A stretch of 64,000 bases of DNA from a virus. Positions 18,007 through 53,925 of this stretch are shown here, one piece after another. The position numbers and the translations under genes were made by a program. Positions within the stretch are counted from its first letter, which is position 1. Each line of letters begins with the position of its first letter. The DNA lies in the IMG/VR virus record IMGVR_UViG_3300046714_000544, positions 5,169 to 69,168 of that record; one strand, given 5' to 3'. The notes under the pieces were generated by a model. That model did not search any database. It saw nothing but the letters and a program-made list of their open reading frames with translations, and had not been told where the DNA came from.

Positions 18007-19158
18007 CTAGAACTTCCACTTCTCCAACCCTCCCATCGTAGGCCCTATCTTAGCCTCCACCTCAATCGACATCCCACCCAACTCCTCCCATCGTCGTTCC
18101 ATCGACTCCCGCATCATTTGAAGAATCCGCCGCTCCTCTCCAATACGCACCTGAGCAGTGATACTATCATGCGTGGGAATAAGCAGACTGAACGTCGTCC
18201 CTTCCTCAGGATGCCCACCGAGATCTACTAGGATCGTGCGCAACATTGCCGCCCCGGTTGACTGGGGCAAGAATGCCAGGCACTCCGATGCCTCCCTTGA
18301 CGGCGCCCCCTCCTTGTCGAGGACATTGAAAAAGCTGAGAGAGAAGCCGAAGGGTGTAGTAAGCCTCCCCTGGGTGTGCGCCTGCATCATTGTCGTGTTT
18401 TGCCATTGGACTATCTTCGGAAAGGCCCGTTCGATGACGGACCTGATTTCCTTTGTCTCCTTCACTGACTTGCCAAGGGTGCGCGCCATGTTGTATAACC
18501 CCTGGCGGTAGTTGAATGCGTTGTTGGCGATCTTTACTATTTTGTATTCGGTGGGGTAGCCGCCTTTAAGTCCATCGAGGTAAAGTCCCAGTGCTTTATC
18601 ATCCATTCCCAAGTCAGCGGGGCGGCCAAGGTAATGTGATAATACGAAGGCATGGGAACCCAACTTCGCGACTCGGATGTAGTCGGGGTCGTTGGCGAAG
18701 AATCCCACAAGCGTCGGCTCAATTGCTCTCCAGTCTAGTTCAACTAGGTGATATCCGGGATCAGGGAGGAAGGAGCTGCGGATGATTGCAGCTGCCTCTT
18801 CCATGATTTCGGAGCCGCGACCCTGCGGCAGGTTCATGAGGTTTGGCCGCTTGGCAGCAAGCCGGCCGGTTTTGACGGTCGTATAGAGGGGATGGATCTT
18901 TCCGTCCAGCCCTACCATCGCCTCCCCTAGGTAGCTCTTCGCCTGCTTGTAATGGCGGGCATCGAGGGTTAGGCCAAGGACTGCATCATCGAAGAACTTG
19001 CTGATGGACTCATTGTTGCTGGTCGGCTTCTTCGTGGTGCGATGGAGGGGGATCTTGTATCCCTTCCACTTCATGTAGTCGAGGACTTGCTTTGGGGAGA
19101 GGGGGCTGAAGGGCTCCGCGCGTGCCCACAACAGTTGTTCTTCTAGAGGGATCTCGAT
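18007..19158 (-). CDS. Family A DNA polymerase, polymerase (C-terminal) half
   Basis: TGRLAAKRPNLMNLP, motif A ELDWRAIE, motif B KIANNAFNY, motif C PTHDSI; probable ATC start 7 nt after GGAGG. Confidence 0.9.
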   Translation of the reverse strand: MEIPLEEQLLWARAEPFSPLSPKQVLDYMKWKGYKIPLHRTTKKPTSNNESISKFFDDAVLGLTLDARHYKQAKSYLGEAMVGLDGKIHPLYTTVKTGRLAAKRPNLMNLPQGRGSEIMEEAAAIIRSSFLPDPGYHLVELDWRAIEPTLVGFFANDPDYIRVAKLGSHAFVLSHYLGRPADLGMDDKALGLYLDGLKGGYPTEYKIVKIANNAFNYRQGLYNMARTLGKSVKETKEIRSVIERAFPKIVQWQNTTMMQAHTQGRLTTPFGFSLSFFNVLDKEGAPSREASECLAFLPQSTGAAMLRTILVDLGGHPEEGTTFSLLIPTHDSITAQVRIGEERRILQMMRESMERRWEELGGMSIEVEAKIGPTMGGLEKWKF

Positions 19159-19361
19159 CGATATTCCTCCATAACTTCCTGCGTAATATCGGTAGTGTCA
19201 AAGTCGTTGTCGGAGCTAGGCACATGATGAACTACATCCCAGATGGAGCCCTCATGATCCAGTATCTTCAGCCAACTCAGCACGTCTCGCCTAAGCCAGA
19301 TGCGCACCTGAACATCATCCCCAGAGACGCAGCTCATTGATAGGATCCAGCATTCTCTCAT
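19143..19361 (-). CDS. Hypothetical microprotein inside the split polymerase locus
   Basis: GGAGG SD plus ATG; 72 aa. Confidence 0.55.
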   Translation of the reverse strand: MRECWILSMSCVSGDDVQVRIWLRRDVLSWLKILDHEGSIWDVVHHVPSSDNDFDTTDITQEVMEEYRSRSL

Positions 19362-19532
19362 CTAGTCCTCCCAAAAATGATCATCCCAATGCTCCTTACA
19401 CCTAGCACACCAATCCCCACCCCAGCCGAAGAGCCACCTTAAACGGTCGCTCTTGAATTCTCCATCACCCTCTGGGCATATGCGGGCATCGGTAGGAGTG
19501 TACTCGTCGTAGTCATCGGACTCCAACATCAT
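19362..19532 (-). CDS. Hypothetical acidic Trp/Cys microprotein (56 aa)
   Basis: MMLESDDYDEYTPTDARICPEG...CARCKEHWDDHFWED; GAGG SD; ATGA overlap with the upstream ORF. Confidence 0.5.
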   Translation of the reverse strand: MMLESDDYDEYTPTDARICPEGDGEFKSDRLRWLFGWGGDWCARCKEHWDDHFWED

Positions 19533-19726
19533 TGCACCTCTCTAAGAATGTTAACCTCAACCTGCTCACCTAGGAACCGCTCCCAGCATCCGTCACACCC
19601 GAAGTGGAGTTCCCTGGCAAGGCGACTGACTTTCGTCTGGTCTTCCCACGGGAGGATGTAGAGGTAGGCCCGGGTTGCGGGTTCTCCACACCAGGCGCAT
19701 CCCTCTTCTTCCTCTTCTTGGGCGAT
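19529..19726 (-). CDS. Zinc-finger microprotein overlapping the polymerase N-half tail (start uncertain)
   Basis: CAWC...CDGC motif in an alternate frame. Confidence 0.4.
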   Translation of the reverse strand: MAQEEEEEGCAWCGEPATRAYLYILPWEDQTKVSRLARELHFGCDGCWERFLGEQVEVNILREVQ

Positions 19727-21306
19727 GCTGGCTTCTCTAAGCTGAGCCCGAAGCTCGATTGCTGGGTCAACTGCTGGAGGAGGAGATACGCCTGCGCCTG
19801 GCCCCTTGTCCTCACCTTTCCCAGCAACTGCCCCTCCGTGCCTATAGCGTACCACGTTTGGAGCGGCACGGGGACTAGCTGCCTCACCTGGACCATCTTC
19901 CCCTCCTCCCACTTCCCCTCTTTCCGCAACTTCTCCTCTGACGATTTGAACACCTTAACCTTTCTGCACCCCAGTGGGGCGATGTGTTGTAGTTCAGCGA
20001 TGCATCGTTCCATCTCTTGAAGGAAGTGGTCGAAGCCTTTCTTCCTGATGTCTCTGTCGGTCCGTACCCCGCGGTTGCTCATCCGGTCTAGGATGATCCG
20101 GAGTTGGATGTACTGCTTGTCGAAGGACTCCCAACGGCCCTGCTTCTCCAAACCCGCCCTACCGTAGTTGAAACAGCGCAGGAGGACATCGGAGTCCGCG
20201 GCGTTATACCAAGCCGGGTTCGTCCCACTCTCATCCTTCCAGTAGTGCATGTCTGGTGTGGCGAAGGTGGCGATGTACTTCAGGCCAGCCGGCCAGGACG
20301 GTTCGAAGTGATGCCAGACGTCCATGTTGTCAACGATCGGGCCGCCGAAGACGACTCCGGCATTCAACAGCCGGGGGCAGTCGAAGTGCTGGTTGTGAAC
20401 TAGCTTCCACCCCGGCAACCCCAGCAGCTGTTTGCACAGGGTGATGTAGGGCTCTGTCCACGGGACGCTGATGGCCTGGAAGGGCTTGAAGGAGAAGGAG
20501 ATCCGTAGGATGGTGTAGGAGGGATCATTCTCAACAACATCCTCCTCATCATCCATCCCGGCCTCGATGTCGCCATCCTTCTCATTGCGTGCGCTGTATG
20601 GCGTCTCGATATCGAAGGCGAGGGGTGGGTAGCCTGCGGCCGCGTACTCTGCAATGAACCGTGCCAGGGCCTGTGGTGGCGGGTCGCACTGGTAGAACTT
20701 TGCCGCTTGGATCTTGCCAAGTCGGGCCACCGCCAGGGCCTTCATCAGGTCATGCTGCCAGACCCGGGTCAGGTGCCAGTTGCCCCGCTGGATGTAGGAG
20801 GGATGGTAGGTGGGGAGGACCAGGCCGTAGGGGCTGTCATACACATACCCGCGGCGTTTTTCAATCCCCCAATGGCCGGTGAACCACCTCATCGGTGTGT
20901 TCCCGAGCGGCATGATGACGCGGGGCTTGACCTGATTAAGAAGCTCGGTCAGATAGGGAGAGCAATTCCTAATCGCGTCATGCTCGAATGGTTGCTTGGA
21001 GAGCTTGTTGTCTGGTGGCCGGCAGCGGAGGACGTTGCTGATCAGGAAGTCATCCCTCTTCAGGGGGAGGTTGTTAACCGGGTCCATTTGCCGGGTGATC
21101 ATGCGATCCAACGTCTGTCCCGCTTGGCCGACAAAGGGGCGACGGGTGGGGACAGGTCCTTGCTGTCTCGCCTCATCCTCCCCAAGGGCCTCGCCGACCA
21201 TCATCACGCCGTGCTTTAGGAGACCGCTAGAAACAACGTACCCGCTACCAATGTGGGCTAGCGGGCAAGGGGCGCAGCGGTCGGGTTTGTTGCTAGGTAG
21301 GGCTAC
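19570..21306 (-). CDS. DNA polymerase N-half: uracil-DNA glycosylase-like (family 4) plus 3'-5' exonuclease domains
   Basis: CAPCPL, VGEALG..E, PFVGQAG, NVLRCRPP, PTYHPS (UDG-4); FDIET, HNQHFD, YNAADS (Exo I-III); RMSNRGV thumb start. The conserved CxxC lies upstream of the ORF-track start, implying a GTA start at 21306. Confidence 0.85.
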   Translation of the reverse strand, partial: VALPSNKPDRCAPCPLAHIGSGYVVSSGLLKHGVMMVGEALGEDEARQQGPVPTRRPFVGQAGQTLDRMITRQMDPVNNLPLKRDDFLISNVLRCRPPDNKLSKQPFEHDAIRNCSPYLTELLNQVKPRVIMPLGNTPMRWFTGHWGIEKRRGYVYDSPYGLVLPTYHPSYIQRGNWHLTRVWQHDLMKALAVARLGKIQAAKFYQCDPPPQALARFIAEYAAAGYPPLAFDIETPYSARNEKDGDIEAGMDDEEDVVENDPSYTILRISFSFKPFQAISVPWTEPYITLCKQLLGLPGWKLVHNQHFDCPRLLNAGVVFGGPIVDNMDVWHHFEPSWPAGLKYIATFATPDMHYWKDESGTNPAWYNAADSDVLLRCFNYGRAGLEKQGRWESFDKQYIQLRIILDRMSNRGVRTDRDIRKKGFDHFLQEMERCIAELQHIAPLGCRKVKVFKSSEEKLRKEGKWEEGKMVQVRQLVPVPLQTWYAIGTEGQLLGKVRTRGQAQAYLLLQQLTQQSSFGLSLEKPASPKKRKKRDAPGVENPQPGPTSTSSRGKTRRKSVALPGNSTSGVTDAGSGS

Positions 21307-21655
21307 TGTCTGACCTTCCCTTCTGTGGAAAAATGCCGACGGCGAACTGGAAGTTGCAACGAGGACAGCGCATGTCTAGATGCTTCTCGCTGGTCCAAAG
21401 AGGACAAGGCCGATCTCCGTTCCTGGTGCTCTCCCAATGCCCCTCACAGAAGGGGGCCTGGTAACATGGGATATAGTCAATGTTCCAACCCAAGAAGCCG
21501 CGCAGTTTGTTTTCTTTGCAGGGGCGCCTGAAGCTATCGTAATGAGGGCGGGTGCCCGGGCAAACGCTCATAACTTGCAGGCTACTGTTCAACATCCTAC
21601 ATTGCGGACATTCACTACCGGCATAGTAGAGAGACTTCTCAGTCTCCATCATCAC
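21293..21655 (-). CDS. Cys-rich hypothetical protein
   Basis: CPQC...CPRC motifs; overlapping-gene context. Confidence 0.5.
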   Translation of the reverse strand: MMMETEKSLYYAGSECPQCRMLNSSLQVMSVCPGTRPHYDSFRRPCKENKLRGFLGWNIDYIPCYQAPFCEGHWESTRNGDRPCPLWTSEKHLDMRCPRCNFQFAVGIFPQKGRSDSSPT

Positions 21656-21873
21656 GAAGTCACCCTAAACAACTGCGGCTTATCGCGCCCCTGATAACGA
21701 ATGACGGCGACCTTGAGGTCAAAGTACTTGAAAGCCCCATCACGAATTAGCTTCGCTGTCCGCTCAGAGACGGCATCGCTATGGAAGAGAAAGTAGTACA
21801 TCCCTCCCTCCTCCACGTGAGCAATGTCGCCCTGCTTAAAGAGGTCCGCAACTTCAGTCGCCGTCAGTGACAA
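21652..21873 (-). CDS. Hypothetical protein
   Basis: Tightly packed minus-strand operon. Confidence 0.5.
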   Translation of the reverse strand: MSLTATEVADLFKQGDIAHVEEGGMYYFLFHSDAVSERTAKLIRDGAFKYFDLKVAVIRYQGRDKPQLFRVTS

Positions 21874-22317: not shown

Positions 22318-22718
22318 AGGAGGCCCTCCTCAGCGAGCAGGTAGTTAAGCTCCCCCAGAGTCGCTCTAGCAACCCGCACTGCTTTCTCTTCTATCTCTGG
22401 GTCATCTCTGTCTTGACCACTCAGATACTCTTGCCCTTCCCGCGTAGAGATATCGAACTGCTCTCCGGTTTGAAACTCATACACACCTCCGGGGCAAGAG
22501 GCCATGAACTGCCTTCCCGAGGCTTTATCCTGATAGACCCATTGAAACACAAAGGCATAAGTCTCTACGCCGACCTTTAGCCCAGTATACCAAGGAACAT
22601 TTGTCACGAACCCATTACTAGCTTCCGGTACATTCTTCATGATGACATCATCAAGGTGATCCTTGAAGTTGGGGTAATGCCCACAAGTAGGGCACACTTC
22701 TCCATTCTGATAACTCAT
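22314..22718 (-). CDS. Hypothetical protein
   Basis: ATGA overlap; CPTC motif. Confidence 0.5.
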   Translation of the reverse strand: MSYQNGEVCPTCGHYPNFKDHLDDVIMKNVPEASNGFVTNVPWYTGLKVGVETYAFVFQWVYQDKASGRQFMASCPGGVYEFQTGEQFDISTREGQEYLSGQDRDDPEIEEKAVRVARATLGELNYLLAEEGLL

Positions 22719-23452
22719 CCCTTAAACGCCTTCCTTTCCCGGTCCCACTTGCCGCAACTTGTACAGAAGATCCTCCTATACTTCAACTCGCCCACAATGG
22801 ACGTGCCTCGGTATTGAATATGCCCGCCACAAACGCGGCAGGTTGCCTTGTCATATGCCCTGGGGTGGGCATTATCAAACGGCCGCAGGCGTAGGTATAG
22901 CTGCTCCAGGGTCTGCACGTCCTGTTCGCAATACTTCGCCATCGCTCGAAGGGAAGCAACATCGCCCGCGAGCACCCGCATCCACCAACCCGGCCACTCG
23001 TCCCGAGTCTTCATATGCTTCTGCTCGGTCAGCCCAAGCGTCAGTGCCAGGTTCTGCAGTCTGTTGCTGGTGAAGTTCGCCACGCTGCTGGCAATGAACT
23101 TCGTATCCCGCATCTTCGTCATGGGGATAGGTGGGAGGTTGTTGATGAGAAGGCGCCCTTGAAAGAACCGGCGATCGAACACGGACCCGTAATGGGCAAC
23201 CGTGATATCCGCCTCGTTAAGAAGCTTGGATGCCGCCTTCAGGAGCTGCTTATCATCGACAACATACTTACGACGTTGACCCGGCAGGCCGCCGAAATCT
23301 TCGAGGGTCATGGAGTGGGCCTTCTTTTCCCCCAGCCACTTCCAACCGAAAACCGCCAGCGACCCCAGGTCACTCCTCAGGGCGTTGACCCCGATGGTCT
23401 CCACGTCCCAGATCAGGACCTTGGGTGCTGTTTCCACACTATCAATCTTCAG
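22715..23452 (-). CDS. RNase H-like (DEDD) exonuclease with C-terminal zinc ribbon
   Basis: LIWDVET, AHYGSVFD, YCEQDV; CRVC..CTSC; probable CTG start 7 nt after GGAGG. Confidence 0.8.
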   Translation of the reverse strand: MKIDSVETAPKVLIWDVETIGVNALRSDLGSLAVFGWKWLGEKKAHSMTLEDFGGLPGQRRKYVVDDKQLLKAASKLLNEADITVAHYGSVFDRRFFQGRLLINNLPPIPMTKMRDTKFIASSVANFTSNRLQNLALTLGLTEQKHMKTRDEWPGWWMRVLAGDVASLRAMAKYCEQDVQTLEQLYLRLRPFDNAHPRAYDKATCRVCGGHIQYRGTSIVGELKYRRIFCTSCGKWDRERKAFKG

Positions 23453-23794: not shown

Positions 23795-24432
23795 GCGATT
23801 TCCTTCTGGGCGAAGTTCTTCTCCAGGAAGGCCTTAGCAGACAGGCCGCTCTTTTCCCAATCACTCACCGCACCCAGAAACCCCTCCATTGACTGCACCA
23901 CAAGGACATTCTCCAACTCTGTCTCGTAGGAGAAGTTCCAGGAGCGTTCCTGGAGGCAGACAAGGGCCTCTGGATTCATCGCCGCGATCTCCTCGATGTT
24001 CTCATCGAAGTCATCCAGGTAGGCGTCCATCTTAATCTTCCCCTTCGACTCGTCGGCGGAGAGGATGTGGATGTTGTGGGCGGGGATGGCGGGGAGCCAT
24101 TGATGTAGCCACAGCTTTCGATCATTGATACAACTCTCCGGCACCTTGGTGATGATGTGGATCTCAGGGGCGCTTGGGATGTCTAGGAGATTTTGGAGCG
24201 GCTCCATGTTCTCCGGATAGCAGGCCATGTCCTGGAAGACGCCGTACTTGACAACAAGCTCATCCCAGAACTCCTTCCACCTTTCCTCCCCCACCATGTG
24301 TTCAACGTAGGTCCAGGAAGGCGGATTGGCGGGGACGTTGATGCCGTAGTGGTCGAGAAAGACCCTGCGGACCTTGGTGCCGTAGTTGCTTAGGACGCCA
24401 TCGCAGTCGATGCCCAGACGAAGCTTACTCAT
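23791..24432 (-). CDS. HAD-family 5'(3')-deoxyribonucleotidase
   Basis: GIDCDGVL motif I, IIT, K..I..DAYLDD motif IV. Confidence 0.8.
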   Translation of the reverse strand: MSKLRLGIDCDGVLSNYGTKVRRVFLDHYGINVPANPPSWTYVEHMVGEERWKEFWDELVVKYGVFQDMACYPENMEPLQNLLDIPSAPEIHIITKVPESCINDRKLWLHQWLPAIPAHNIHILSADESKGKIKMDAYLDDFDENIEEIAAMNPEALVCLQERSWNFSYETELENVLVVQSMEGFLGAVSDWEKSGLSAKAFLEKNFAQKEIA

Positions 24433-24779
24433 CCCTTCATCCTATCGTCAGTTCCCAAACCGAGTCTCTCGAATTCCATGAGGGTGTTGAGGTGGAAGAC
24501 GGCGTGTGCCAGATGGTGGTAGGAACTTTCAGCGTCCACTGAAGTACCTCCCTCGAAGGCAGATAGATGTCGATGGAGGGCATCCAGACTGAGCCGCCAA
24601 GGATAACCCTTGCGCCAGTTGTCGGCCGCGTACTTCTGTGCGCCATACCCATACACCTTGGCCACTTCGAGGCGTGGCCACCAAGGAACCAAGGAAAAGC
24701 GCGCGATCTTAACACCCTTCTCTCCACCTGTAACGGGGTCAACAAACCTAACTTCTTCTAAATGTGCCGCTGTTGTCAG
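24429..24779 (-). CDS. dATP/dGTP diphosphohydrolase-like protein (DUF5664-type)
   Basis: TGGEKGVKIARFSLVP, YGAQKYAADNWRKG, ALHRHL, D.ES..HHLAHA; the conserved N-terminus requires a CTG start at 24779. Confidence 0.8.
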   Translation of the reverse strand: MTTAAHLEEVRFVDPVTGGEKGVKIARFSLVPWWPRLEVAKVYGYGAQKYAADNWRKGYPWRLSLDALHRHLSAFEGGTSVDAESSYHHLAHAVFHLNTLMEFERLGLGTDDRMKG

Positions 24780-25120
24780 TGTGTAGCCTCCCTCTTCTGC
24801 GCCTTGATAAGGTCATATTCAACATGGCCGTGTGGAGGTGCGCCCTCCAGCAGCACGTCATAGCCCAGAAATCCAAGCCGCGCCTGAAGTGCAGCAACCA
24901 CCTTGCCCGGATTCGAAAGGCTGACAGTGCGGAAGTCGAACGCATATCCAGCCGCATGGTAGCCATTCTCCTCAAAGGTCCCCAGGCGAGTGATGGAGGT
25001 GATGATGCAATCCTTCCCCTCCTGCTCGGCGATGACTTCGGAGGCGACTGTCATGGCAAGCAATGTCTCCGCCTTCAGGAGGCGGGCGGTCTTAATCTGC
25101 TCATCAAATCGTAGACTCAT
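24776..25120 (-). CDS. M15-like zinc peptidase (putative endolysin)
   Basis: ITS...YHAAGYAFDFR...HGHVEYD zinc-ligand pattern. Confidence 0.65.
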   Translation of the reverse strand: MSLRFDEQIKTARLLKAETLLAMTVASEVIAEQEGKDCIITSITRLGTFEENGYHAAGYAFDFRTVSLSNPGKVVAALQARLGFLGYDVLLEGAPPHGHVEYDLIKAQKREATH

Positions 25121-29384: not shown

Positions 29385-30032
29385 TTAGGCAGACTTCTTG
29401 AAATACGAGACAACCGCCTTCGCCTCGTACAGGACGCCATTCTTCTCCACCGTCTCGCTGTACAGCGGCGTGCCATCCTCCGCCGTGCCCACCTGGAAGT
29501 CGGCCTTCTTCAAACCGCCATTCGCCCACTTACCAGTCGACGCGTCCTTGCGGCTCTTGTCGTTCCAGTTGATGACCACCACAACCGGCGTGGAAAGGGA
29601 CTCCTGCACCCACTGGATCGCCTTCTGGAGATCCATGTTCTTGGTGTCGAAGCCGAACGCCGAGAGGTAGGAGGCCACCGAGGTGGACTGCTTCGGCTGG
29701 CCCGTTGCCGGGTTGATGAGCGGTTGACCCGTCTCATAGTCGGTGAGGGTGAAGGGGATCGTGGTGACCTTCTTATCCAGGAAGCGGGTCTGGAGGGTCT
29801 TCTGACTCTCCTGATCCACAAGCCCCGAGGCGAACGAGATGACGAACTCGTAGTGTCCCGCCGCGGCGCCTTCCTTGATCTGCTTCGCCTTCACAGTGCG
29901 GTTGAGGGACAAGTACTCACCCGGAGGGGTGACGCGGAAGCCGGACGTTTCTGCAGCGACCATGCCTCCCGGAATCTCTTCGCCCTGTCCGCCAATCCCA
30001 CTGATGTCCGTATAATCGTCGTAGTTAGCTAT
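29385..30032 (-). CDS. Putative ssDNA-binding protein (DUF669-like OB fold)
   Basis: PPGEY motif; strong codon bias; own terminator; AAGGAG SD with an in-frame ATA start at 30032. Confidence 0.55.
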   Translation of the reverse strand: MANYDDYTDISGIGGQGEEIPGGMVAAETSGFRVTPPGEYLSLNRTVKAKQIKEGAAAGHYEFVISFASGLVDQESQKTLQTRFLDKKVTTIPFTLTDYETGQPLINPATGQPKQSTSVASYLSAFGFDTKNMDLQKAIQWVQESLSTPVVVVINWNDKSRKDASTGKWANGGLKKADFQVGTAEDGTPLYSETVEKNGVLYEAKAVVSYFKKSA

Positions 30033-30271
30033 TTTAAGGCTCCTTTTGTTTTTGGTTTAGTTGTTTACTGGTTTACTTACTGATCTTGATCGGACCCTTG
30101 GGGGCAAGCACCTTGACCCTAGGGGGGAGCGACTTTGCGGTCTTCTTCATCACTTTCCTTTCTTCGAATCCTTGATATACTTCTCCAACCTTGTCGACTG
30201 CTTCCCGACGTTCACCTTATTCCCGCCCACTGTTTTCAGCTTGGGCAGGAGGGGCTTTTCTTTTCCGAAGG

Positions 30272-32799: not shown

Positions 32800-33843
32800 T
32801 CATGCGAGTAGAGCTGCCTTCGCCTTCACCCGTGCTTCGTCCATCTTCTGGAAAAACGTCGTCGCCACTCCGCCTACTTCTGGGAAGTCAAGGACCTTTG
32901 GAAACTCTCCTCCCCTTGGAGCGGAACACTTCGCGAAGAACCCGTACGGCTTGCAGTCTGCCGGGAAGTGCGGCGCGACATACAACTTCCTGTCAACAAT
33001 CTCTATCCCCTGCCCATCCTTCACGGACTGCTTATTGGCATCCAGTCGAGGGACAAGGTCAGTGTGTATGACATCTGTGAACCAGGGCAGGCATCGCTCA
33101 AGCAAAGCTTTCCCAGGAAACGCCGGCCCATATGCGGGCTTTCCGTCGTCATCGACTCCGCGAAGTTCCAGAGCGGTCCAGAGCACAATGGGCACCGGAA
33201 TTGTATGTGTATTAGCGACCTGGATCGCGGCGTAGTTCTGAGCATCCCCATAATGTTGCTTGCCCAGACCAGCAATCGTGAAATCGCCATCCTTAACCTG
33301 CCTGCCCCCACCGGAGTCGATAAGACGTAGCCGGTTGAGCATAAGCTGTCCGAAAGATGTGGCTCCCTCGAAAACATAAGCTCCTACCTCATCAAACCCA
33401 TTAGCCGCCTCCGTCACCTTCTCCAACCGGACCCCCTGTGCGAAGGGAATCCCACACGCCTGACACTTCACTACCTGCGCTTGGCCGATGGAACCACTAT
33501 CCCCCTTACAGGAGGGGCAGGGTTTCCAAACCTTCGTCGGCGCGAGTAGTGGACTATCCGGCTCCGCAACATTGGCGGGCCAGTGGCCCTTCGTTGCCAT
33601 GTTGAGGTTGTGGAAGATGGATGCCTCGGGGAAGGAGTCGATGGCCCAGACGCTGACGATCCCCTCGTCCATTAGCGGTTGGTACGCCTTCTCTCCTCCC
33701 CCGTCGGCGGTTACCACCCGGGTCTTTTTCCCGTACTTCTTCCAAACGTAGGCGGCAACGTCGGCCGCGAACGAGGACTTACCGACTCCCCCCTTCCCGT
33801 AGTTCAGGATTTTGTGGATCGGCTTCAGACACAATAGGGCTAT
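32800..33843 (-). CDS. AAA_24/Sak4-like P-loop ATPase with zinc-finger insert
   Basis: YGKGGVGKSS Walker A; YVFEGATS; YGP..PGK; CPSC..CQAC insert; possible ATA start at 33843. Confidence 0.75.
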   Translation of the reverse strand: MALLCLKPIHKILNYGKGGVGKSSFAADVAAYVWKKYGKKTRVVTADGGGEKAYQPLMDEGIVSVWAIDSFPEASIFHNLNMATKGHWPANVAEPDSPLLAPTKVWKPCPSCKGDSGSIGQAQVVKCQACGIPFAQGVRLEKVTEAANGFDEVGAYVFEGATSFGQLMLNRLRLIDSGGGRQVKDGDFTIAGLGKQHYGDAQNYAAIQVANTHTIPVPIVLWTALELRGVDDDGKPAYGPAFPGKALLERCLPWFTDVIHTDLVPRLDANKQSVKDGQGIEIVDRKLYVAPHFPADCKPYGFFAKCSAPRGGEFPKVLDFPEVGGVATTFFQKMDEARVKAKAALLA

Positions 33844-33960
33844 TAGGCACCTTCCTCTCTTTTAGGTATATTGTTGCTAGCTCCCAAGTACATATTGAAC
33901 AGTCTTCTACATCCAGCCACGGACACGGATTGGCGTCACAAGCGGCACATCCGGGGCACT

Positions 33961-34341: not shown

Positions 34342-35366
34342 GCTGCCACCAGTTCCGGAAAATTGGCCGCCGTCAACCACTTCATCGGGCGGATCCAGGG
34401 ATCGAAGGGCGAGGCATTCTCGCACGTCTTCACGATATCGATCTCATAGGGAGTGTAGTTGGAGGAGGAGGAGTAATGACGGTTGCCTGATCCCCCCATC
34501 CCATTGCTATGAACCCCCCACATCGCCTCATACTGCGCCGCCTCATCGTCATCTGCCTGCATGGCGTCCGCGACCTTGTCGAGGATCGAGGCGACCATCT
34601 CCTTGTCCATCTTGATCATCGAGGTATCATCATACCGCGACCCGAAGATGAAGCACTTCATGCAATTAACGACCGTTGGATCTTCATCATCGATGATCAG
34701 CCGCGTGCCACAGTGCGAGGGGCAAGTCTTCCCCGCCCGATCGTTCGGATTGTACACGCTGACCTTGCTCGACTGTTTCACCTCGGGGGTGCTGTAGAGG
34801 ACCTTCCCATCCGAATCCCGATAGAGGAACCTCGCCACCTTCGAATCACACCCCACACACCAAAGCTGCGCCTCGGGGTCGTCGATGGATTGGATGAGGG
34901 ACGCGCCCTTACACCCCCCACAAGTCTCCCCGATTCGGTCAACCTTCTCCACCTTCTTCGAGGCATAGAAGCTACCTAGGGGCTTCCCTGTGTATGGGTT
35001 CAACTTACAAGCAGCACACTCAAGGACAAGAGAATCGCGGCCCTTCAACAAGACCCCAGCATCCCCGACGCAATGCGGGCACATCTCCCCTTCTTGATAC
35101 AAAGCCTTCTTCTCCTTCTTCCTCATCACCGGCTCAGACGTCACAGGATCCCTGAAACACTTGTAGCACATCAACTGCCCGTTGACCTTCGTCAGAGAGC
35201 CGTGGATGCACAGGGGGCAGTGCTCTCCTAGCTCATAGGCCGGTTTGCCGAGTTGAAAAACATCCCCGCACTCCTCACAACAAAGCTCCTCGACCCCATC
35301 CGCATTCTTCCAACTGACCAGGGTCCGGTAACGGGAACAGCTAGGACAATCCGACCCCACTGTCAA
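34338..35366 (-). CDS. Multi-zinc-ribbon repeat protein
   Basis: At least five G.xCPxC...L.CxxC repeats. Confidence 0.6.
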   Translation of the reverse strand: MTVGSDCPSCSRYRTLVSWKNADGVEELCCEECGDVFQLGKPAYELGEHCPLCIHGSLTKVNGQLMCYKCFRDPVTSEPVMRKKEKKALYQEGEMCPHCVGDAGVLLKGRDSLVLECAACKLNPYTGKPLGSFYASKKVEKVDRIGETCGGCKGASLIQSIDDPEAQLWCVGCDSKVARFLYRDSDGKVLYSTPEVKQSSKVSVYNPNDRAGKTCPSHCGTRLIIDDEDPTVVNCMKCFIFGSRYDDTSMIKMDKEMVASILDKVADAMQADDDEAAQYEAMWGVHSNGMGGSGNRHYSSSSNYTPYEIDIVKTCENASPFDPWIRPMKWLTAANFPELVAA

Positions 35367-36405
35367 CCGCTCCTCGCGTCCGCCTTTCTTTGCGCTCACT
35401 TAGTTTCCCATCCTTTAACATCTCCTCAACCGTCGTTCGTTCGAAACAGATGTCCTCGAAGGGACACCAGGGGCAGGTCTTCTTGGTTATGCGTTGGGTG
35501 AAAAAATCGAGGCGGTCCTCTTCCGGGACGTCGGGGGAGAGGATGTTCTCAATCTCCGTCTCCCTTCTGACGAGCGTCTTCAACCACTTCTCAACCATCG
35601 CCTCGCTGATGGTGATGGGGGAGGAACGGCGGAAGGGGACGTCGATGACGGCTAGGAAGGCAGGATTAGCAAGCCATTCGCTGATCGACATGACGTCGGG
35701 GATGAAGAGCTTCTCCCACCCCGCCGTGTATCCGGCCTTGAGAACGCCGGCCTTGGAACGGTAGGCATAAAGGAGGGGCGTTGTAAAAAAGCCATTCCTC
35801 CGCTCCCCCTTATAGAAGCCCTCAACAACAATGCCCGCAACATCTTCCCGCACATCATCCTGAACCGCGACCCCTTCCGTGATCATCTGGATATCGTAGA
35901 ACCAGTCCCGCTGATCCCACTCCTTGCACGTCTTGTGGTTGAACACCCAGATCGCGCCATTGCTCCTCTCCCTTACAACGACATCCGCACGGGCGTAGAG
36001 GATGACGTTGGAGGAGAGGGGAACCTTGATCTCCCGCTCGACTGTTAGGACTTCATAGGTGGAGAGGAATAGGGGGAGCCGGTGCATTCCCCATCCCATG
36101 ACAAAGGCCTCGACAAGGAAGCCGCCCTCTCGTACCTGAGAAGAGAGGAGAGGATTTGTGCCGAGGTCAAGGGAGGAGGTGGATTGTTCCCACTCCTTCT
36201 GTGCCTCTCTAACAGCCTCATCCACAGTTGACCCAAGGAGAAGACTCTCGATCCCCTTATGGACACCGATGCCGATCGCGGCCTCAATCCAGTACGGCCC
36301 CTTCTGTGTCCCCTCAAGCCCCATCCCTCCCCACTCCGAGGTGTAGTAGAACTGCCTCGGGCAACTGTTGTACGTCTCGTAACCGCTTCTGCTGATTACC
36401 CTTAT
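35341..36405 (-). CDS. PD-(D/E)XK (Cas4/RecB-like) exonuclease
   Basis: ISRSGYETYNSCPRQFYY, GIGVHKGIE, E.E, ADVVV, NHKT, CPWCPFEDIC; the N-terminal motif needs an ATA start at 36405. Confidence 0.85.
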   Translation of the reverse strand: MRVISRSGYETYNSCPRQFYYTSEWGGMGLEGTQKGPYWIEAAIGIGVHKGIESLLLGSTVDEAVREAQKEWEQSTSSLDLGTNPLLSSQVREGGFLVEAFVMGWGMHRLPLFLSTYEVLTVEREIKVPLSSNVILYARADVVVRERSNGAIWVFNHKTCKEWDQRDWFYDIQMITEGVAVQDDVREDVAGIVVEGFYKGERRNGFFTTPLLYAYRSKAGVLKAGYTAGWEKLFIPDVMSISEWLANPAFLAVIDVPFRRSSPITISEAMVEKWLKTLVRRETEIENILSPDVPEEDRLDFFTQRITKKTCPWCPFEDICFERTTVEEMLKDGKLSERKERRTRGAVDSGVGLS

Positions 36406-36641
36406 TCCAGGACCTCCTTCTTAAAGAAGGCAACCGCCTCCTCGAAAGTGTGAAATGGGAAGATGCCGGGGATCTCCCCCGCCATGACCTTATCCCAAAA
36501 CTCATGGCACTCCGTATCCCCCAGCCATGGTTCAACGTACTCGTGGCCAATCTGGACAATCCAAAGACCGCCAGAGTAGGCTCCAGTGTAGCGATCCAGG
36601 CTGATCGAGGCTGGATAGTGCCTAGGCCGATCCCTCTTCAC
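36402..36641 (-). CDS. Hypothetical protein
   Basis: DRYTGAYSGG motif; AAGGAGG SD. Confidence 0.55.
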   Translation of the reverse strand: MKRDRPRHYPASISLDRYTGAYSGGLWIVQIGHEYVEPWLGDTECHEFWDKVMAGEIPGIFPFHTFEEAVAFFKKEVLE

Positions 36642-50034: not shown

Positions 50035-50533
50035 GACTTCTCCCCCCTGGTCAACAACACCGACGTTGACGACAACAACCGCCGGCCCCTCGCGCGGACT
50101 GCTTCCACATGACGGTCCATCGCGGTCTTGGAAGAGGGGAAGATCAGCAGTTTCCCCCTCTTCACCGCATCCTCCTTCGCAGGAGGGCAATCGGGCACAT
50201 GCATCCCCACGCTGATCTCCTCCAGGGTGCGGAGAGGGAGTCGGCAGGCGGCGGCTAGGCAGTATTCCATTTCCTCCATCTCCATCCCTTGAACTCGATG
50301 TTCATGAAGGGAAGATGAATGCGCAGTCCCCCCAGATAAGCCAGCCCGATTGTGCAGTCGCCCAGGTCGATGGTGAAGTTGACCCGCCGGCCGATCCAGC
50401 ACCAGTAAGGTAGCATGATCTTCTCCTCCCCACCTCTTATGGGTGTAGCAAAAGTCCGGCATCTCCCAAGGTGTGAAGTCTCCGTAGATGCACTTACACC
50501 TTGGGTTGGGCTGTTTACCGCAGCACCAGCAGA

Positions 50534-50917
50534 CTATGGAAGCAACTTCACAAGAGGAATCCCATTCGCGCCCGATGGGATGTAGATCTGGGTGTGATTC
50601 GGGCTCCCCGCCATCTTCTCCTGCGCGATGATCGCCTCGTGCTGGAGGTACTGATCCGTCAGGGTTGCGTTGATGATGTGCTGGGCGGCACTGATTCCCT
50701 CCGCCTCCTGCACCCTGATGGCGGCCTTCTGCTTCTCCACCTGGATCAGCTGCTCGGATTGCTTGATCTTGATCTCGTTGATCAGGACCTGATTGTTGGC
50801 GTTCTCCCGATCCTGGTAGCGGCTGTAGGAGGGGATGCCGAATGCAAGGCCACCGACGAGGACAATGATGGCCAGGACGATGAGAGTGATTGCCGGAGCG
50901 GCGCTCTCGTCCCTCAT
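50534..50917 (-). CDS. SPFH/band-7-related membrane protein
   Basis: N-terminal TM; RVQEAEGI..AQHII..TLT..YLQ..IYIPSGANGIPL. Confidence 0.65.
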   Translation of the reverse strand: MRDESAAPAITLIVLAIIVLVGGLAFGIPSYSRYQDRENANNQVLINEIKIKQSEQLIQVEKQKAAIRVQEAEGISAAQHIINATLTDQYLQHEAIIAQEKMAGSPNHTQIYIPSGANGIPLVKLLP

Positions 50918-51411
50918 GCCGCGAGCGCTTCTTTCACCAGGACCTCATACTTCGCATCCTCGGGATCGGATGGGTCGAAGGCCGAGGGCATATTCACCGT
51001 CTGGCCTGCACGAGCAAAACGGCGGAAGCCCTTCGTCTCCGGGAAGGGGTACTTCTCCAGGAACTTGACCGCCTGGTCCCACACCCGATCATTCGCCGTA
51101 TCGATCATGATGCTCCGGAGTTCCTTGAGGTAGAAGATTGGGGAGCCGGCCACGTCCGGGCAGCAGTAGCCCACGACCTTCCCGCTCGCCTTCATCTCCG
51201 CGAGCAGCTTGAGGGGGTCGACGTTGAGGACGCCGGCGAGGCCGTGCAGGGTCCAACGACGAGGCCGGCCTTTCTTGCCCGGCAACCCTCCACCGCTCGC
51301 GTAGGCGGCGGGGTTGAAGCAGCGCATCAGCTTCTCCCAACCGGGGATGGAGGACTTCTTCGACTTGGTGATGGTTCCGGCGACCGGCTTCTTCTTCTTC
51401 AACAGCGACAT
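50914..51411 (-). CDS. Hypothetical protein (possible HTH)
   Basis: WTLHGLAGVLNVDP; strong codon bias. Confidence 0.5.
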   Translation of the reverse strand: MSLLKKKKPVAGTITKSKKSSIPGWEKLMRCFNPAAYASGGGLPGKKGRPRRWTLHGLAGVLNVDPLKLLAEMKASGKVVGYCCPDVAGSPIFYLKELRSIMIDTANDRVWDQAVKFLEKYPFPETKGFRRFARAGQTVNMPSAFDPSDPEDAKYEVLVKEALAA

Positions 51412-52165
51412 TACTTGATCTCCCGATAGGTGGGCACGAGTGGAGGCAACTCGGGGCGTTGTGCCGAAACAACCCCGACGAGGGCGTAGATATAGATGGG
51501 TGTGGGATCTGTGTACACAGTGTTCTTGAGCTGTCTGCTGAGGGTATCCTTAGCAAGATTAACTGTTGTCGGTACATCCACGGCATGGCCGACAACCTGG
51601 CCATATTGGATCGCCACCCCGGTGTTGGTCACAGCGTCACCACCTCCACCCGGAAGCGGCTCTCGTGCTGCTGTTTGTGTTGGAGCACAAACTCCGAAAC
51701 TGTGCTGCATGCCGTGGTAGGTGATTTTACCGTCTCCCCTGAGTTCGGGGTGTTTCCCACAGGCGCAACCCTGCAATACCGATGACACCCGATCTCCACC
51801 TTTCTCTCCCCCTCGCTCAACGATTGCCAACGATCGGCGTCGGGGAGTTCACCCCTAAACCGCACCTGGTCATGCTCCCACTTCTTACACAGCGAACAGT
51901 AGGCGAAGTGGGACAACCCGCCGACGAGGTGATGGAAAAGGGTCACGATCGCCCTTCTCGGTGCTTTCTGATGTGACTGACTCAATTGGACTTCCCCTCT
52001 GGGGGAGTAGAAAGGGGCAGAAGGGTTGCTCTCCCTCTGCCCCATGAAATACAGTCCGATATGGGGTCCATCAGGGAAACTAAGGCCGCATCCTCTGAAA
52101 TCCTACTGATCGAAACGACTGTTTCCAGGGAGCGCCCCTGGTGGCGTTGCGGCAAAGCCGCGGGT

Positions 52166-52576
52166 TTACTTAAGCTGCTTGATCCACTCGCTGTAGGAGT
52201 CGGCCACCTTCTCCCAGTCCTGGCACGCCTCGGGCCAGCTGCCGGTGCCCTTCGGTTGGAGGGTGAAGTACCCTCCTGGACCACCGAAGTTCAGCCAAGC
52301 CCTCTGAAAGATGTCCACTGCATGCAGGGCAAGGGAGCAGACACCGGTCGGCTTGTGCCGCCAGACCTCGCCGTACTTGGGCAGGTCGGTGATCTTCTCG
52401 ACCACAAAGCAGGGGTAGGGAGCGTCCCAGCCGTACTCAACAACCTTCACCTCAGTTGGTTCGGCGATTTTCGGGTACTCCCAGCGTAGTGTGTTCTCCC
52501 CTCGTTTTGGGTACCGGTAGGCGACCAACCTCCATCCCTCCGGCACCTCGATCTCGACGGTCAGGGATTGCTTCAC
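52166..52576 (-). CDS. Hypothetical protein
   Basis: IEVPEGWRLVAYR.P..GE motif. Confidence 0.55.
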   Translation of the reverse strand: MKQSLTVEIEVPEGWRLVAYRYPKRGENTLRWEYPKIAEPTEVKVVEYGWDAPYPCFVVEKITDLPKYGEVWRHKPTGVCSLALHAVDIFQRAWLNFGGPGGYFTLQPKGTGSWPEACQDWEKVADSYSEWIKQLK

Positions 52577-53538
52577 TTCTTCATCTCCAATTTTGCGAGG
52601 ATGCCGAACAGAAGGCCCCAGGCGACAAAATCGCGCGGGGCCTTGGGATCGAGTGAGGCGATGAGGCAGAGGATGCTAATGACGTAGTAGGCGATCCCCA
52701 TCATGCCGCCACCCTCTGCTCTTCCCCGCTCTTGATGTAGGCGAAGAAGATGGACACCAGGCGGCCACCGTCCTTCTGCCTCTTCACCCTCTCGTACATC
52801 GTGGCCGTGAGGGGCTTGTCGTCCCCATCCTCCGTGTTGCTGACGACGGGTATGGCCTTTGGTTGCTTCATCTCAATCCTCCTTGTAGAGGAGAAGGAGG
52901 TCCGCCCTCACCTTCTCCTGAATTCCCGCGATCATCCTCACCGTTTCCGGCCCGTGGTGTTGGCTGTCGTGCCCGCAAAACTTCACCCGCATCAGCTGCT
53001 TGATGGCCTGGTCGGCGTTTCTCACCAGCAGTTCTCCGAGGGTGGCTCGTCTGCGCCGCCAGATGAGAAACATAGCTACGCGTCCATCCAGGCCAAGAGG
53101 TAGCCAATGATGCAGATGATCAGGGCAATGGTGCTTACAACAAGGAAGAGGGCGGCGAAGAATACAAGCATGCTCATGCCATCCTCCTGCCCTCGTACCG
53201 TGGCCGAGGTGTGGTAGTACCAGGGGACCCAGAGCCACCAGAGGAACAGAAGGATGGCTCCTAAGGACGGGAACACCACCAATCTCTTAGACTGTCGTGT
53301 CATCGAAAGTCTCCTATCATGGACGTCAAGTTGACATTGAGGGGGAAGTGTGCTAGCAGGAACAGCTAAAAAGGAGTAGCGATGGCCCCACTGCGACACT
53401 TGCAATCAGCCCTTGACCTTCTCCCAATGCCCCGACATCTCTCCCCAGACAGGCTTGATGAAGCGTTGACGAGGGCGGTTCTGCTTCCTCTCCAACCAGT
53501 GGAGCCGTGCCAGGGCGATGTTGGCCGCTCTCTGGCTC

Positions 53539-53925
53539 TCAGTCTTCGCGTTCATGATCTCTCCCCCTCAAAGATGCAGCTTGCTTTCTCAGGTGAAAGA
53601 TGCTGCATGGGTTACAACCAAGCACACCCCTGAGGCGTCCCCAAAGGCGGCAGTGTTCGTACAACCCCCCGAAATCGCCAGTGAGTCGTGTGAAGTCGGC
53701 AATCCCCGCCATCCTCCCCGCGATCCACAGGCAGATGAGTGTCCTCTCCCTTGTACCTATAAGGCTCTTATCATCCAGGAACCTGTTGAACGCTGGTGCG
53801 TAGATGCGGAGAAGGCGGAGCTGCCATTCGTAGCGAGAGGGGAAGGGCTTCTCTCCCTCACCTCTAGCGACGGCCTGGAATTCATGATACGCATTCCCGA
53901 GGTGGCGGAGGACAAGGTTTTTCAG
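53539..53925 (-). CDS. Hypothetical protein (128 aa) with CTG start, missed by the ORF track
   Basis: GAGGGGG SD; CTGA overlap with the upstream stop; the open frame MKNLVLRHLGNAYHEF... fills the gap exactly. Confidence 0.5.
   Translation of the reverse strand: MKNLVLRHLGNAYHEFQAVARGEGEKPFPSRYEWQLRLLRIYAPAFNRFLDDKSLIGTRERTLICLWIAGRMAGIADFTRLTGDFGGLYEHCRLWGRLRGVLGCNPCSIFHLRKQAASLRGRDHERED

What the first reader, a model, noticed from the sequence alone, without database searches (positions are those of the whole stretch)
19158..53925. Systematic non-canonical start codons (ATA, GTA, ATC, CTG) on DNA-metabolism genes
Seen (minus strand, SD then 4-7 nt then an in-frame codon): PD-(D/E)XK nuclease AAGGAGGT-cctgga-ATA (36405, ATAA overlap; restores the SxxETYxxCPRxxYY motif); SSB-like AAGGAG-ccttaaa-ATA GCT (30032); AAA ATPase AGGAAGG-tgccta-ATA GCC CTA (33843); polymerase N-half GGAAGGT-cagaca-GTA GCC CTA (21306; restores the UDG CxxC, and no ATG/GTG/TTG lies between it and the upstream in-frame stop); polymerase C-half GGAGG-aatatcg-ATC (19158); dNTP diphosphohydrolase GGGAGG-ctacaca-CTG (24779; restores TGGEKGVK); DEDD exonuclease GGAGG-tggacgc-CTG (23452); and a hidden ORF with CTG at 53925. 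Two share the context GGAAGGT-N5/6-RTAGCCCTA. The structural genes use ATG/GTG/TTG. Known: IF3 discriminates against non-canonical starts (infC AUU autoregulation). Inference: this may be a translational gate that keeps replication genes low until initiation fidelity is relaxed (IF3 inhibition, altered initiator tRNA), or A-to-I editing could convert AUA/GUA to AUG/GUG-like codons. It may also be simple down-tuning of toxic genes.
Basis: partly seen in the sequence, partly recalled or inferred. Interest (0 to 1): 0.82.

Follow-up and report, generated by a model that had tools for sequence, protein, structure and literature searches.

The report
Phage genes starting at non-standard codons
An uncultured soil phage starts six or seven of its genes, mostly DNA-replication genes, at weak non-standard start codons where its relatives use normal ones, so public gene calls cut these proteins short and their output is probably set at the translation-start step.

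Summary
Each follows a Shine-Dalgarno site, and no ATG/GTG/TTG lies between the upstream in-frame stop and the codon.

**Support per site**
- Homology supports seven of the eight as real starts: the nuclease ATA, the SSB-like ATA, the P-loop ATPase ATA, the polymerase N-half GTA, the polymerase C-half ATC, the dNTPase CTG and the hidden-ORF CTG.
- In those seven, conserved residues or homolog N-termini lie upstream of the first canonical codon.
- The exonuclease CTG is doubtful. Its homologs line up with the canonical GTG five codons downstream.

**Relatives and sequence quality**
- By my recount, related phages carry a canonical codon at 63 of 64 aligned starts.
- Contigs from four other soil runs show no difference at any of the seven start codons laid.

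**Reading**
- This is genuine near-cognate initiation, and three of the sites sit in 4-nt stop/start overlaps.
- Its purpose is inferred, not shown. Down-tuning or translation sensitive to IF3 or ppGpp are the candidates.
- A-to-I editing is not supported.

This scan has noted single-gene cases before (an ATT-started flap nuclease in E. coli phages) and, unchecked, multi-gene cases in two other phage genomes. I class it as a new variant of a known kind.

The parts
35341..36405 (-). PD-(D/E)XK (Cas4/AddB-like) nuclease gene read from ATA 36405
   Evidence: The Pfam PDDEXK_1 profile, position 2, aligns at residue 4. Homolog P0004 starts with M exactly at our ATA. All 13 relatives with a complete 5' end have ATG, GTG or TTG at or next to the aligned codon. 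The first canonical ATG (36324) would remove the conserved N-terminal Cys.
36402..36419 (-). Start region of the nuclease gene: AAGGAGGT, a 6-nt spacer, then ATA. The ATA overlaps the upstream gene's TAA stop (ATAA).
   Evidence: letters and coordinates. SD duplex -13.8 kcal/mol.
29385..30032 (-). SSB-like (weak OB-fold) gene read from ATA 30032
   Evidence: The M of P0007 aligns to our ATA. The 23-residue acidic N-terminus is conserved in P0006 and P0007, and our internal ATG position is V in both. All 14 relatives start at ATG upstream of the conserved block. AlphaFold model pLDDT 83.9. The best PDB matches are PrgE, RPA and SSB, but none reaches E <= 0.001.
30030..30045 (-). Start region of the SSB-like gene: AAGGAG, a 7-nt spacer, then ATA GCT. 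It follows an A-rich intergenic stretch.
   Evidence: The -30..+30 fold is only -0.8 kcal/mol.
32800..33843 (-). P-loop ATPase gene read from ATA 33843 (the canonical TTG at 33834 is the alternative)
   Evidence: The family N-terminus is M-[A/P]-[I/L]. L008 reads ATG GCA CTA where ours reads ATA GCC CTA. L011 keeps the same internal TTG and starts further upstream. The SD lies 5 nt from ATA but 14 nt from TTG.
33835..33855 (-). Start context GGAAGGT-N5-ATAGCCCTA, shared with the polymerase N-half
19570..21306 (-). UDG-fused family A polymerase, N-half, read from GTA 21306
   Evidence: There is no canonical codon in the 24 codons above GTA or the 33 below it. The CxxCPL motif lies 10 codons after GTA. 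Homologs start 4-9 residues before that motif.
21298..21319 (-). Start context GGAAGGT-N6-GTAGCCCTA
   Evidence: SD duplex -13.5 kcal/mol.
18007..19158 (-). Family A polymerase, C-half, read from ATC 19158 (the canonical TTG at 19131 is the alternative)
   Evidence: Three of 3 relatives with a split polymerase start the C-half 5-12 residues before the conserved Trp. Our TTG directly abuts that Trp, and L034 shares I-E-I right after its GTG start. GGAGG lies 7 nt before ATC. Support is moderate.
24429..24779 (-). dATP/dGTP diphosphohydrolase-like gene read from CTG 24779
   Evidence: The Pfam domain starts at residue 17 and PHROG matches start at residues 7-17, while the first canonical codon is 29 codons downstream of CTG (residue 30). 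L005 conserves the motif that lies in the extension. CTG is the only near-cognate codon in the permitted stretch.
24776..24792 (-). Start region of the dNTPase gene: GGGAGG, a 7-nt spacer, then CTG. The CTG overlaps the upstream gene's TGA stop (CTGA).
53539..53925 (-). 128-codon 'hidden' gene of unknown function read from CTG 53925
   Evidence: Two homologs of 114 and 115 aa (E 1.9e-7 and 9.1e-5) align from query residues 21 and 32. The first canonical codon is 71 codons downstream of CTG (residue 72).
53922..53936 (-). Start region of the hidden gene: GAGGGGG, a 4-nt spacer, then CTG. The CTG overlaps the upstream gene's TGA stop (CTGA).
22715..23452 (-). DEDD exonuclease gene. The start is undecided between CTG 23452 and the canonical GTG 23437.
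   Evidence: The SD GGAGGTG is 5 nt from CTG and 20 nt from GTG. However, the M of 3 of 4 relatives lies 9-11 residues before the catalytic Asp, which matches our GTG; in L009 it lies further upstream.

Best explanation
Six or seven genes of this 69-kb soil phage are translated from near-cognate start codons: ATA three times, CTG twice, ATC once and GTA once. The ordinary initiator tRNA reads each one, positioned by a good Shine-Dalgarno site 4-7 nt upstream.

Three of the sites (ATAA, and CTGA twice) have the same 4-nt stop/start overlap that at least 14 canonical gene pairs in this genome use. Ribosomes finishing the upstream gene probably restart there. The other four sites stand alone or behind short ORFs.

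The likely consequence is inferred, not shown. These proteins would be made at lower rates than ATG-started neighbours, and their rates would depend more on IF3 and on the host's nutritional state. That would set the dose of the replication and recombination enzymes. The trait is derived in this lineage, because relatives carry ATG, GTG or TTG at the same positions.
For: **Shown**
1. The codons and SD sites are as described.
2. Coding sequence extends upstream of the first canonical codon:
   - Nuclease.
   - SSB-like.
   - UDG-polymerase.
   - dNTPase.
   - Hidden ORF.
   - ATPase and polymerase C-half: N-terminal consensus.
3. The upstream in-frame stops are a mix of TAA, TAG and TGA, so no single stop reassignment opens a longer frame.
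4. By my recount, relatives have a canonical codon at 63 of 64 aligned starts. This phage has 6 near-cognate starts out of 7 genes (Fisher p about 3e-7; one search was run with 64 canonical rows).
5. One relative, L028, independently has TAA-CTG behind GGAGG at the ATPase start.
6. Contigs from 4 further soil or rhizosphere runs are identical across 18000-37999 except for one base in the exonuclease SD.
7. The genes are intact and their conserved residues are kept, so they are under selection.

**From papers**
[quoted passage not shown] Annotated starts are 81.8% ATG, 13.8% GTG and 4.35% TTG (bioRxiv 10.1101/063800, passages read).
- Within an optimised start region in vitro, AUA behaved like AUG. 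Non-AUG starts were preferentially hit by ppGpp and nutrient limitation (PMC5499595, abstract).
- A GTC start repressed by IF3 controls sigR in Streptomyces (PMC5472188, abstract).
Against: - There are no expression data. No RNA run holds this DNA, and the host is unknown (searches found nothing).
- GTA mismatches the initiator anticodon at two positions and falls in the weakest class in E. coli. A replicative polymerase started this way is surprising.
- An SSB-like protein is usually needed in bulk, which fits 'down-tuning' poorly.
- SD sites at the 7 near-cognate starts are not significantly stronger than at 69 canonical starts (mean -12.0 against -10.2 kcal/mol, one-sided p = 0.06). The start regions are not less folded either (p = 0.21).
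- The contrast between arms is not significant: 7 of 75 minus-arm against 0 of 28 plus-arm genes, p = 0.19.
- The enrichment in DNA-metabolism genes (5 of 9 against 2 of 66, p = 1.4e-4) is inflated. Only genes with homologs can be diagnosed this way.
- The exonuclease site goes against the pattern.
Confidence: 0.72

Rival explanations
1. Permissive host with neutral drift. The unknown host discriminates weakly against near-cognate codons, so ATG-to-ATA or GTG-to-GTA changes cost little and have simply accumulated. They carry no regulatory meaning.
For: Only 38 of 69 confidently placed canonical starts are ATG, with 22 GTG and 9 TTG. That is far more non-ATG than in the model bacteria of 10.1101/063800. 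Four of the 7 codons differ from a canonical codon by a third-position G-to-A change. The arm contrast is not significant (p = 0.19). AUA performed like AUG in an optimised context in vitro (PMC5499595, abstract).
Against: Relatives of the same clade, presumably on related hosts, keep canonical codons at 63 of 64 aligned starts. The near-cognate starts are concentrated in the distal replication module. The nearest relative seems to lack canonical starts in the same three genes at 50-75% protein identity (truncated calls P0002, P0008 and P0010). That would mean the trait has been retained for a long time, but this was not verified at the DNA level.
Confidence: 0.17
2. Translation starts at the first downstream ATG/GTG/TTG, and the shorter products are the functional proteins.
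For: This is possible for the ATPase (TTG 3 codons downstream) and the polymerase C-half (TTG 9 codons downstream), and it is favoured for the DEDD exonuclease. Public gene calls of this genome do exactly this (P0001, P0005, P0009).
Against: The shorter products would lose several conserved features: the conserved N-terminal Cys of the nuclease, the CxxC of the UDG domain, the first part of the dNTPase domain, 23 conserved residues of the SSB-like protein, and about 50 aligned residues of the hidden ORF. The downstream canonical codons have weak, misplaced or no SD: -8.1 at ATG 36324, otherwise -2.1 to -6.3 kcal/mol, and for the hidden ORF no canonical codon was scored in the stretch examined.
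Confidence: 0.05
3. Recoding. The extensions are reached by a programmed frameshift from, or read-through of, the upstream ORF, which would give fusion proteins.
For: Four sites overlap an upstream ORF, by 4 nt three times and by 14 nt at the polymerase N-half. SD-like sequences can also stimulate frameshifting (recalled: prfB, dnaX).
Against: Homologs start as independent genes with canonical codons at the same aligned positions. The SSB-like and ATPase genes follow intergenic stretches of about 115 nt. I saw no slippery-site pattern shared by the sites, but I ran no formal search for one.
Confidence: 0.03
4. Artefact or editing. Either assembly or sequencing errors created the codons, or A-to-I RNA editing converts AUA and GUA into AUG-like and GUG-like codons.
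For: None was found. The editing idea would fit only the four NTA codons.
Against: Contigs of 4 other runs list no difference at the 7 sites laid. Listed contigs span 24779 (3 runs), 33843 (2 runs) and 36405 (1 run) directly. Three different kinds of base change would be needed. None of the 4 NTA sites has the TACG context that I recall for TadA targets. CTG and ATC cannot be mended by A-to-I editing.
Confidence: 0.02

Closest known systems
E. coli infC (IF3) and pcnB AUU start codons (recalled; IF3 discrimination is also described in the abstract of PMC9723500, seen in the listing)
   Same: An SD-led near-cognate start on an otherwise ordinary gene. Output is limited by IF3 proofreading.
   Different: Those are single host genes, and infC is autoregulatory. 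Here 6-7 genes of one phage are involved, with four different codons including GTA, and there is no evidence of feedback.
Streptomyces sigR GTC start codon repressed by IF3 (PMC5472188, abstract read)
   Same: A GTN codon that is not GTG serves as a natural start, in a translationally coupled operon. The weak codon sets protein stoichiometry.
   Different: It is one regulator gene, conserved across a genus, with IF3 dependence shown experimentally. Here nothing has been tested, and relatives mostly use canonical codons.
ATT/ATC/ATA/CTG-started flap endonuclease of phAPEC8-like E. coli phages
   Same: A phage replication nuclease gene with a weak start, which public gene calls truncate.
   Different: That is one gene, with the weak start conserved clade-wide. 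Here several genes in one lineage are affected and relatives are canonical. The ATPase family is a partial parallel: one relative, L028, shows a near-cognate start in its DNA, and 8 of 116 database proteins begin at the Met inside the Walker A loop.
Translational coupling by termination-reinitiation at 4-nt ATGA overlaps (PMC6728339 and PMC2268962; abstracts seen)
   Same: Three sites have the same -4 stop/start overlap plus an SD. At least 14 canonical pairs in this genome share that design.
   Different: The overlap words are ATAA and CTGA, so the restart codon is near-cognate. I did not find this case in the abstracts I read.

Membership tests
SD-led initiation at a near-cognate start codon (infC / pcnB / sigR type) | No ATG/GTG/TTG between the upstream in-frame stop and residues that homologs show to be part of the protein | tested here: met
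   Met for the nuclease, SSB-like gene, polymerase N-half, dNTPase and hidden ORF. Weaker for the ATPase and polymerase C-half. Not met for the DEDD exonuclease.
SD-led initiation at a near-cognate start codon (infC / pcnB / sigR type) | A Shine-Dalgarno site at working distance from the codon | tested here: met
   Spacers are 4-7 nt at all 8 sites. Duplex energies run from -8.5 to -16.3 kcal/mol against a mean of -10.2 for 69 canonical starts.
SD-led initiation at a near-cognate start codon (infC / pcnB / sigR type) | Homologs start at the aligned position | tested here: met
   Nuclease 13 of 13, SSB-like 14 of 14, ATPase 26 of 27 (the 27th has CTG), polymerase N-half 3 of 3 and C-half 2 of 2. 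All have a canonical codon at or within a few codons of the aligned start. Positions were judged by eye.
SD-led initiation at a near-cognate start codon (infC / pcnB / sigR type) | The product carries (f)Met at that position, and output rises when IF3 proofreading is weakened | not testable with these tools
   The host is unknown, and no RNA or proteome data are held.
Termination-reinitiation coupling at a 4-nt overlap | The start codon overlaps the upstream gene's stop by 4 nt, with an SD inside the upstream gene | tested here: met
   Met at 3 of 7 sites: ATAA 36402-36405, CTGA 24776-24779 and CTGA 53922-53925. Not met at the other 4.
Termination-reinitiation coupling at a 4-nt overlap | Downstream translation depends on translation of the upstream gene | not testable with these tools
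   This needs reporter constructs.
A-to-I mRNA editing by a TadA-type deaminase | The target A lies in a tRNA-Arg-like TACG loop context (motif recalled, not from a call) | tested here: not met
   None of the 4 NTA codons has it. The contexts are TAAG, TAGC, TAGC and TAGC.
Alternative genetic code (stop reassignment) hiding a longer frame | One stop codon type consistently interrupts the frames upstream | tested here: not met
   The upstream stops are TAA three times, TAG twice and TGA three times.

The most novel reading that the evidence does not exclude
The near-cognate starts form a 'start-codon regulon'. The replication and recombination module would be gated as a block by the stringency of initiation. 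That stringency could be set by the host's state (IF3 level, ppGpp) or by the phage itself changing the 30S subunit. One candidate is its early-arm amidoligase set: a weak RimK-like R2K ATP-grasp hit, a phiEco32-like COOH-NH2 ligase and GGACT. RimK is known to glutamylate ribosomal protein S6 (recalled). The 21-22-nt start context shared by the ATPase and the polymerase N-half could be an operator for a common translational regulator.
Probability: 0.15. Interest if true: 0.85.

Novelty: new variant of a known kind. Interest (0 to 1): 0.6.

Why it matters
- **Annotation.** Standard gene callers allow only ATG, GTG and TTG. The public protein calls for this very genome therefore lose the Fe-S ligand of the nuclease, a third of the SSB-like protein and the whole hidden gene (P0001, P0005). 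In the ATPase family, 8 of 116 database entries begin inside the Walker A loop. Function prediction and structure modelling of phage proteins inherit such errors.
- **Biology.** About 7 of roughly 103 genes here have near-cognate starts, against about 0.05% of annotated bacterial starts (10.1101/063800). They are concentrated in one functional module and absent from relatives. This is a natural test case for how far start-codon choice is used to set protein dose or to couple phage replication to host physiology. It also offers a candidate natural GTA start.

Tried and rejected
**Searches for relatives and host**
- Close relatives were not found by megablast against GenBank phages.
- Relatives were not found through the nuclease in IMG/VR or in GTDB genomes.
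- Relatives were not found through the SSB-like alignment in JGI metagenomes, the polymerase N-half in IMG/VR, the ATPase alignment in GTDB genomes, or P0039 in IMG/VR.
- The host therefore stays unknown.

**Data that could not be obtained**
- No RNA holder was listed for this DNA, so nothing can be said about expression or editing from reads.
- I could not read the DNA of the nearest relative, the 8586-nt contig behind P0002, P0008 and P0010.

**Scans that gave nothing usable**
- The promoter/terminator scan of 18000-37000 gave no more sites than shuffles.
- Rfam found no family in the window, and ARAGORN found no tRNA in the window or the genome. The tRNA-like stretch at 55721-55794 noted by another reader is not called by either tool.

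**Extra candidates rejected**
- ATA 38180: the true start is ATG 38057, and PHROG matches begin at residues 44-54.
- ATA 50265 and CTG 48749: the extensions translate to R/G/P-rich sequence with no coding signal and no homologs.

**The all-against-all screen**
- The screen covered 990 ORFs from the window plus 33 non-duplicate loci. Eight of the 41 loci were dropped as duplicates.
- It flagged apparent extensions in L038 and L042. Inspection showed these are ordinary ATG starts.
- L041 is a probable frameshift in a 1030-nt contig.
- Single-partner flags were not followed up.

**Literature**
- Searches listed no paper on a phage with many near-cognate starts. This covers only what those searches listed.
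- Supplementary tables of 10.1101/063800, which may give a value for GUA, were not seen.
- PMC4648390 (outline read) concerns eukaryotic oocytes and was not used.

Full report
**What the window is.** The window is bases 5169-69168 of a 69,168-bp virus record with direct terminal repeats. No close relative exists among GenBank phages. About 28 plus-strand genes, mostly structural, flank a roughly 40-kb minus-strand arm of about 75 genes.

- None has an ATG, GTG or TTG between the upstream in-frame stop and itself. The first canonical codon lies 3 to 71 codons further down.
- The Shine-Dalgarno motifs and their 4-7-nt spacers were confirmed letter by letter.
- The shared context GGAAGGT-N5/6-RTAGCCCTA occurs exactly twice in 64 kb, at the ATPase and polymerase N-half starts, against none in 100 shuffles.

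**The sequence is reliable.**
- Contigs assembled independently from four other soil or rhizosphere runs were laid on 18000-37999.
- They show a single difference: 23459 A>T in one run, which lies inside the exonuclease SD and preserves it. No difference is listed at any of the seven start codons in that stretch.
- Listed contigs directly span 24779 (three runs), 33843 (two runs) and 36405 (one run, 11 nt from its end).
- For the other sites I have only bin-level depth. These are contigs, not raw reads.

**SD plus near-cognate codon alone is weak evidence.**
- Among 13,518 internal in-frame codons, 1.2% are ATA, ATC, ATT, CTG or GTA behind an SD-like duplex of -8.5 kcal/mol or better. For -13.5 or better the figure is 0.1%.
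- My own SD-only scan produced three further candidates, and all failed on inspection.
- ATA 38180 lies inside the upstream gene. The helicase-like protein starts at ATG 38057, where PHROG and Pfam matches begin.
- ATA 50265 and CTG 48749 open extensions that translate to R/G/P-rich sequence with no coding signal and no homologs.

**Homology decides the matter, gene by gene.**
- *Nuclease.* The Pfam profile starts at residue 4 of the ATA-started protein. Homolog P0004 starts with M exactly on our ATA. All 13 related loci with a complete 5' end have ATG, GTG or TTG at or next to that codon. The extension holds a Cys kept in every full-length relative. From memory, this is the fourth ligand of the Cas4/AddB-type iron-sulfur cluster, whose other three Cys are invariant at the C-terminus.
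- *SSB-like protein.* The M of P0007 sits on our ATA. The 23-residue acidic N-terminus is conserved, and our internal ATG position is Val in the homologs. All 14 relatives start at ATG upstream of that block. The fold is only weakly OB/SSB-like: the best PDB matches are PrgE, RPA and SSB, and none reaches E <= 0.001.
- *Polymerase N-half.* The CxxCPL motif of the UDG domain lies 10 codons after GTA and 23 codons before the first canonical codon. Homologs start 4-9 residues before that motif. GTA is the only codon at working distance from the SD.
- *dNTPase.* Pfam and PHROG matches begin at residues 7-17, and the first canonical codon is 29 codons downstream of CTG (residue 30). A 62%-identical relative conserves the motif that lies inside the extension. 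CTG is the only near-cognate codon in the permitted stretch.
- *Hidden ORF.* Two homologs of 114-115 residues align from residues 21 and 32. The first canonical codon is 71 codons downstream of CTG (residue 72).
- *ATPase.* The family N-terminus is M-[A/P]-[I/L]. L008 reads ATG GCA CTA where ours reads ATA GCC CTA. The closest relative at DNA level, L011, keeps our TTG as an internal Leu codon and starts upstream.
- *Polymerase C-half.* Three of three relatives with a split polymerase start 5-12 residues before the conserved Trp, whereas our TTG abuts it.
- *DEDD exonuclease.* This is the exception. In three of four relatives the M lies 9-11 residues before the catalytic Asp, which is where our canonical GTG 23437 lies; in L009 it lies further upstream. 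The strong SD, however, is placed for the CTG. I leave it undecided.

**This phage is the outlier in its clade.**
- The ATPase has 116 database homologs, many on contigs of 63-70 kb. Through it I fetched 41 related loci, of which 33 are non-duplicate.
- By my recount, 63 of 64 aligned starts across seven gene families are canonical.
- This phage has six near-cognate starts out of seven genes, counting the exonuclease as canonical. Fisher p is about 3e-7; one search was run with 64 canonical rows.
- The one exception, L028, has TAA-CTG behind GGAGG at the ATPase start.
- Eight of 116 database ATPases begin at the Met inside the Walker A loop, which can only be truncated gene calls.
- The nearest relative is probably one 8586-nt contig, at 75%, 54% and 50% identity for the ATPase, nuclease and SSB-like protein. 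It has truncated calls for all three.

**Anatomy of the sites.**
- Three sites (ATAA, and CTGA twice) have the -4 stop/start overlap that at least 14 canonical pairs in this genome use.
- The polymerase N-half start overlaps an upstream ORF by 14 nt.
- The SSB-like and ATPase genes follow intergenic stretches of about 115 nt.
- Near-cognate SDs are slightly but not significantly stronger than canonical ones (p = 0.06), and the start regions are not less folded (p = 0.21).
- The SSB-like start region is almost structure-free at -0.8 kcal/mol.

**Mechanism.**
- Shown: the proteins must begin at or very near these codons, and no canonical codon, single stop reassignment or assembly error explains that.
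- Inferred: the initiator tRNA reads the near-cognate codon on an SD-bound 30S subunit, and at the overlap sites a terminating ribosome does so.
- In E. coli such codons give about 1-2% of AUG output and other codons 0.1-1% (10.1101/063800, passages).
- In an optimised context in vitro, AUA matched AUG, and non-AUG starts were selectively depressed by ppGpp and nutrient limitation (PMC5499595, abstract).
- IF3 represses a natural GTC start in Streptomyces (PMC5472188, abstract). IF3 overproduction also lowers re-initiation (PMC2268962, abstract).
- The likeliest role is therefore dose-setting of replication and recombination proteins, possibly in a way that tracks host physiology.
- I found nothing that would let the phage relax fidelity itself. 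There is no tRNA. No initiation-factor, kinase or ADP-ribosyltransferase domain appeared in 73 minus-arm proteins.

**Rivals.**
- A permissive host with neutral drift is the main rival. Only 55% of canonical starts here are ATG, and the arm contrast is not significant (p = 0.19).
- Downstream canonical starts, frameshift fusions, artefact and A-to-I editing are each contradicted as set out under the rival explanations.

**Limits.**
- There are no expression data and no host.
- Start positions in relatives were judged by eye.
- The enrichment in DNA-metabolism genes suffers from ascertainment bias, because only genes with homologs can be diagnosed.
- The ATPase may belong to an RtcB RNA-repair module rather than to DNA metabolism.

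**Standing.**
- Near-cognate initiation is well known. This scan has already confirmed single phage genes of this kind and has unchecked first-reader notes of 4-5 such genes in two other phage genomes.
- What is unusual here is the number of genes, their concentration in one module, the GTA codon, and the contrast with relatives.

Noticed in passing
L009:4707-9783; L012, L014, L025, L026, L033: Relatives of this phage carry tRNA genes beside the ATPase and SSB-like genes. L009 has 26 in a row, and five other loci have a tRNA-Met (CAT). This phage has none.
   Followed up: partly
window 31467-34425, minus strand: The order is a cyclic-phosphate receiver (cREC_REC) ORF, then the P-loop ATPase with a four-Cys insert, then an RtcB homolog. 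This looks like an RNA-repair module, so the ATPase may not be a DNA-metabolism gene.
   Followed up: partly
window 39549-44574, minus strand: The early arm holds an amidoligase set: an R2K-type ATP-grasp (weak, below the Pfam cutoff) and a phiEco32-like COOH-NH2 ligase in this range, and a GGACT cyclotransferase somewhere on the minus arm (not located; one search lists families only). Its target is unknown.
   Followed up: no
window 50255-50944, minus strand: Gene 50534-50944 and ORF 50255-50533 are in the same frame, separated by a single TAG. This could be read-through or mere adjacency.
   Followed up: no
window 18007-21306; L002 (MW202554); L017/L021; L034: The family A polymerase is split into N and C halves in relatives too. 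In MW202554 a small zinc-ribbon ORF lies between the halves, as it does here.
   Followed up: partly
window 23459: This is the only variant found in four other runs across 20 kb. A>T turns the exonuclease SD from GGAGGTGGA into GGAGGAGGA on the coding strand.
   Followed up: no
window 55721-55794, minus strand: The tRNA-like stretch noted by another reader is called neither by ARAGORN nor by any Rfam family at gathering score.
   Followed up: partly
window 26502-27497, minus strand: A glycosyl hydrolase family 5 (cellulase-like) domain sits in the middle of the replication arm.
   Followed up: no
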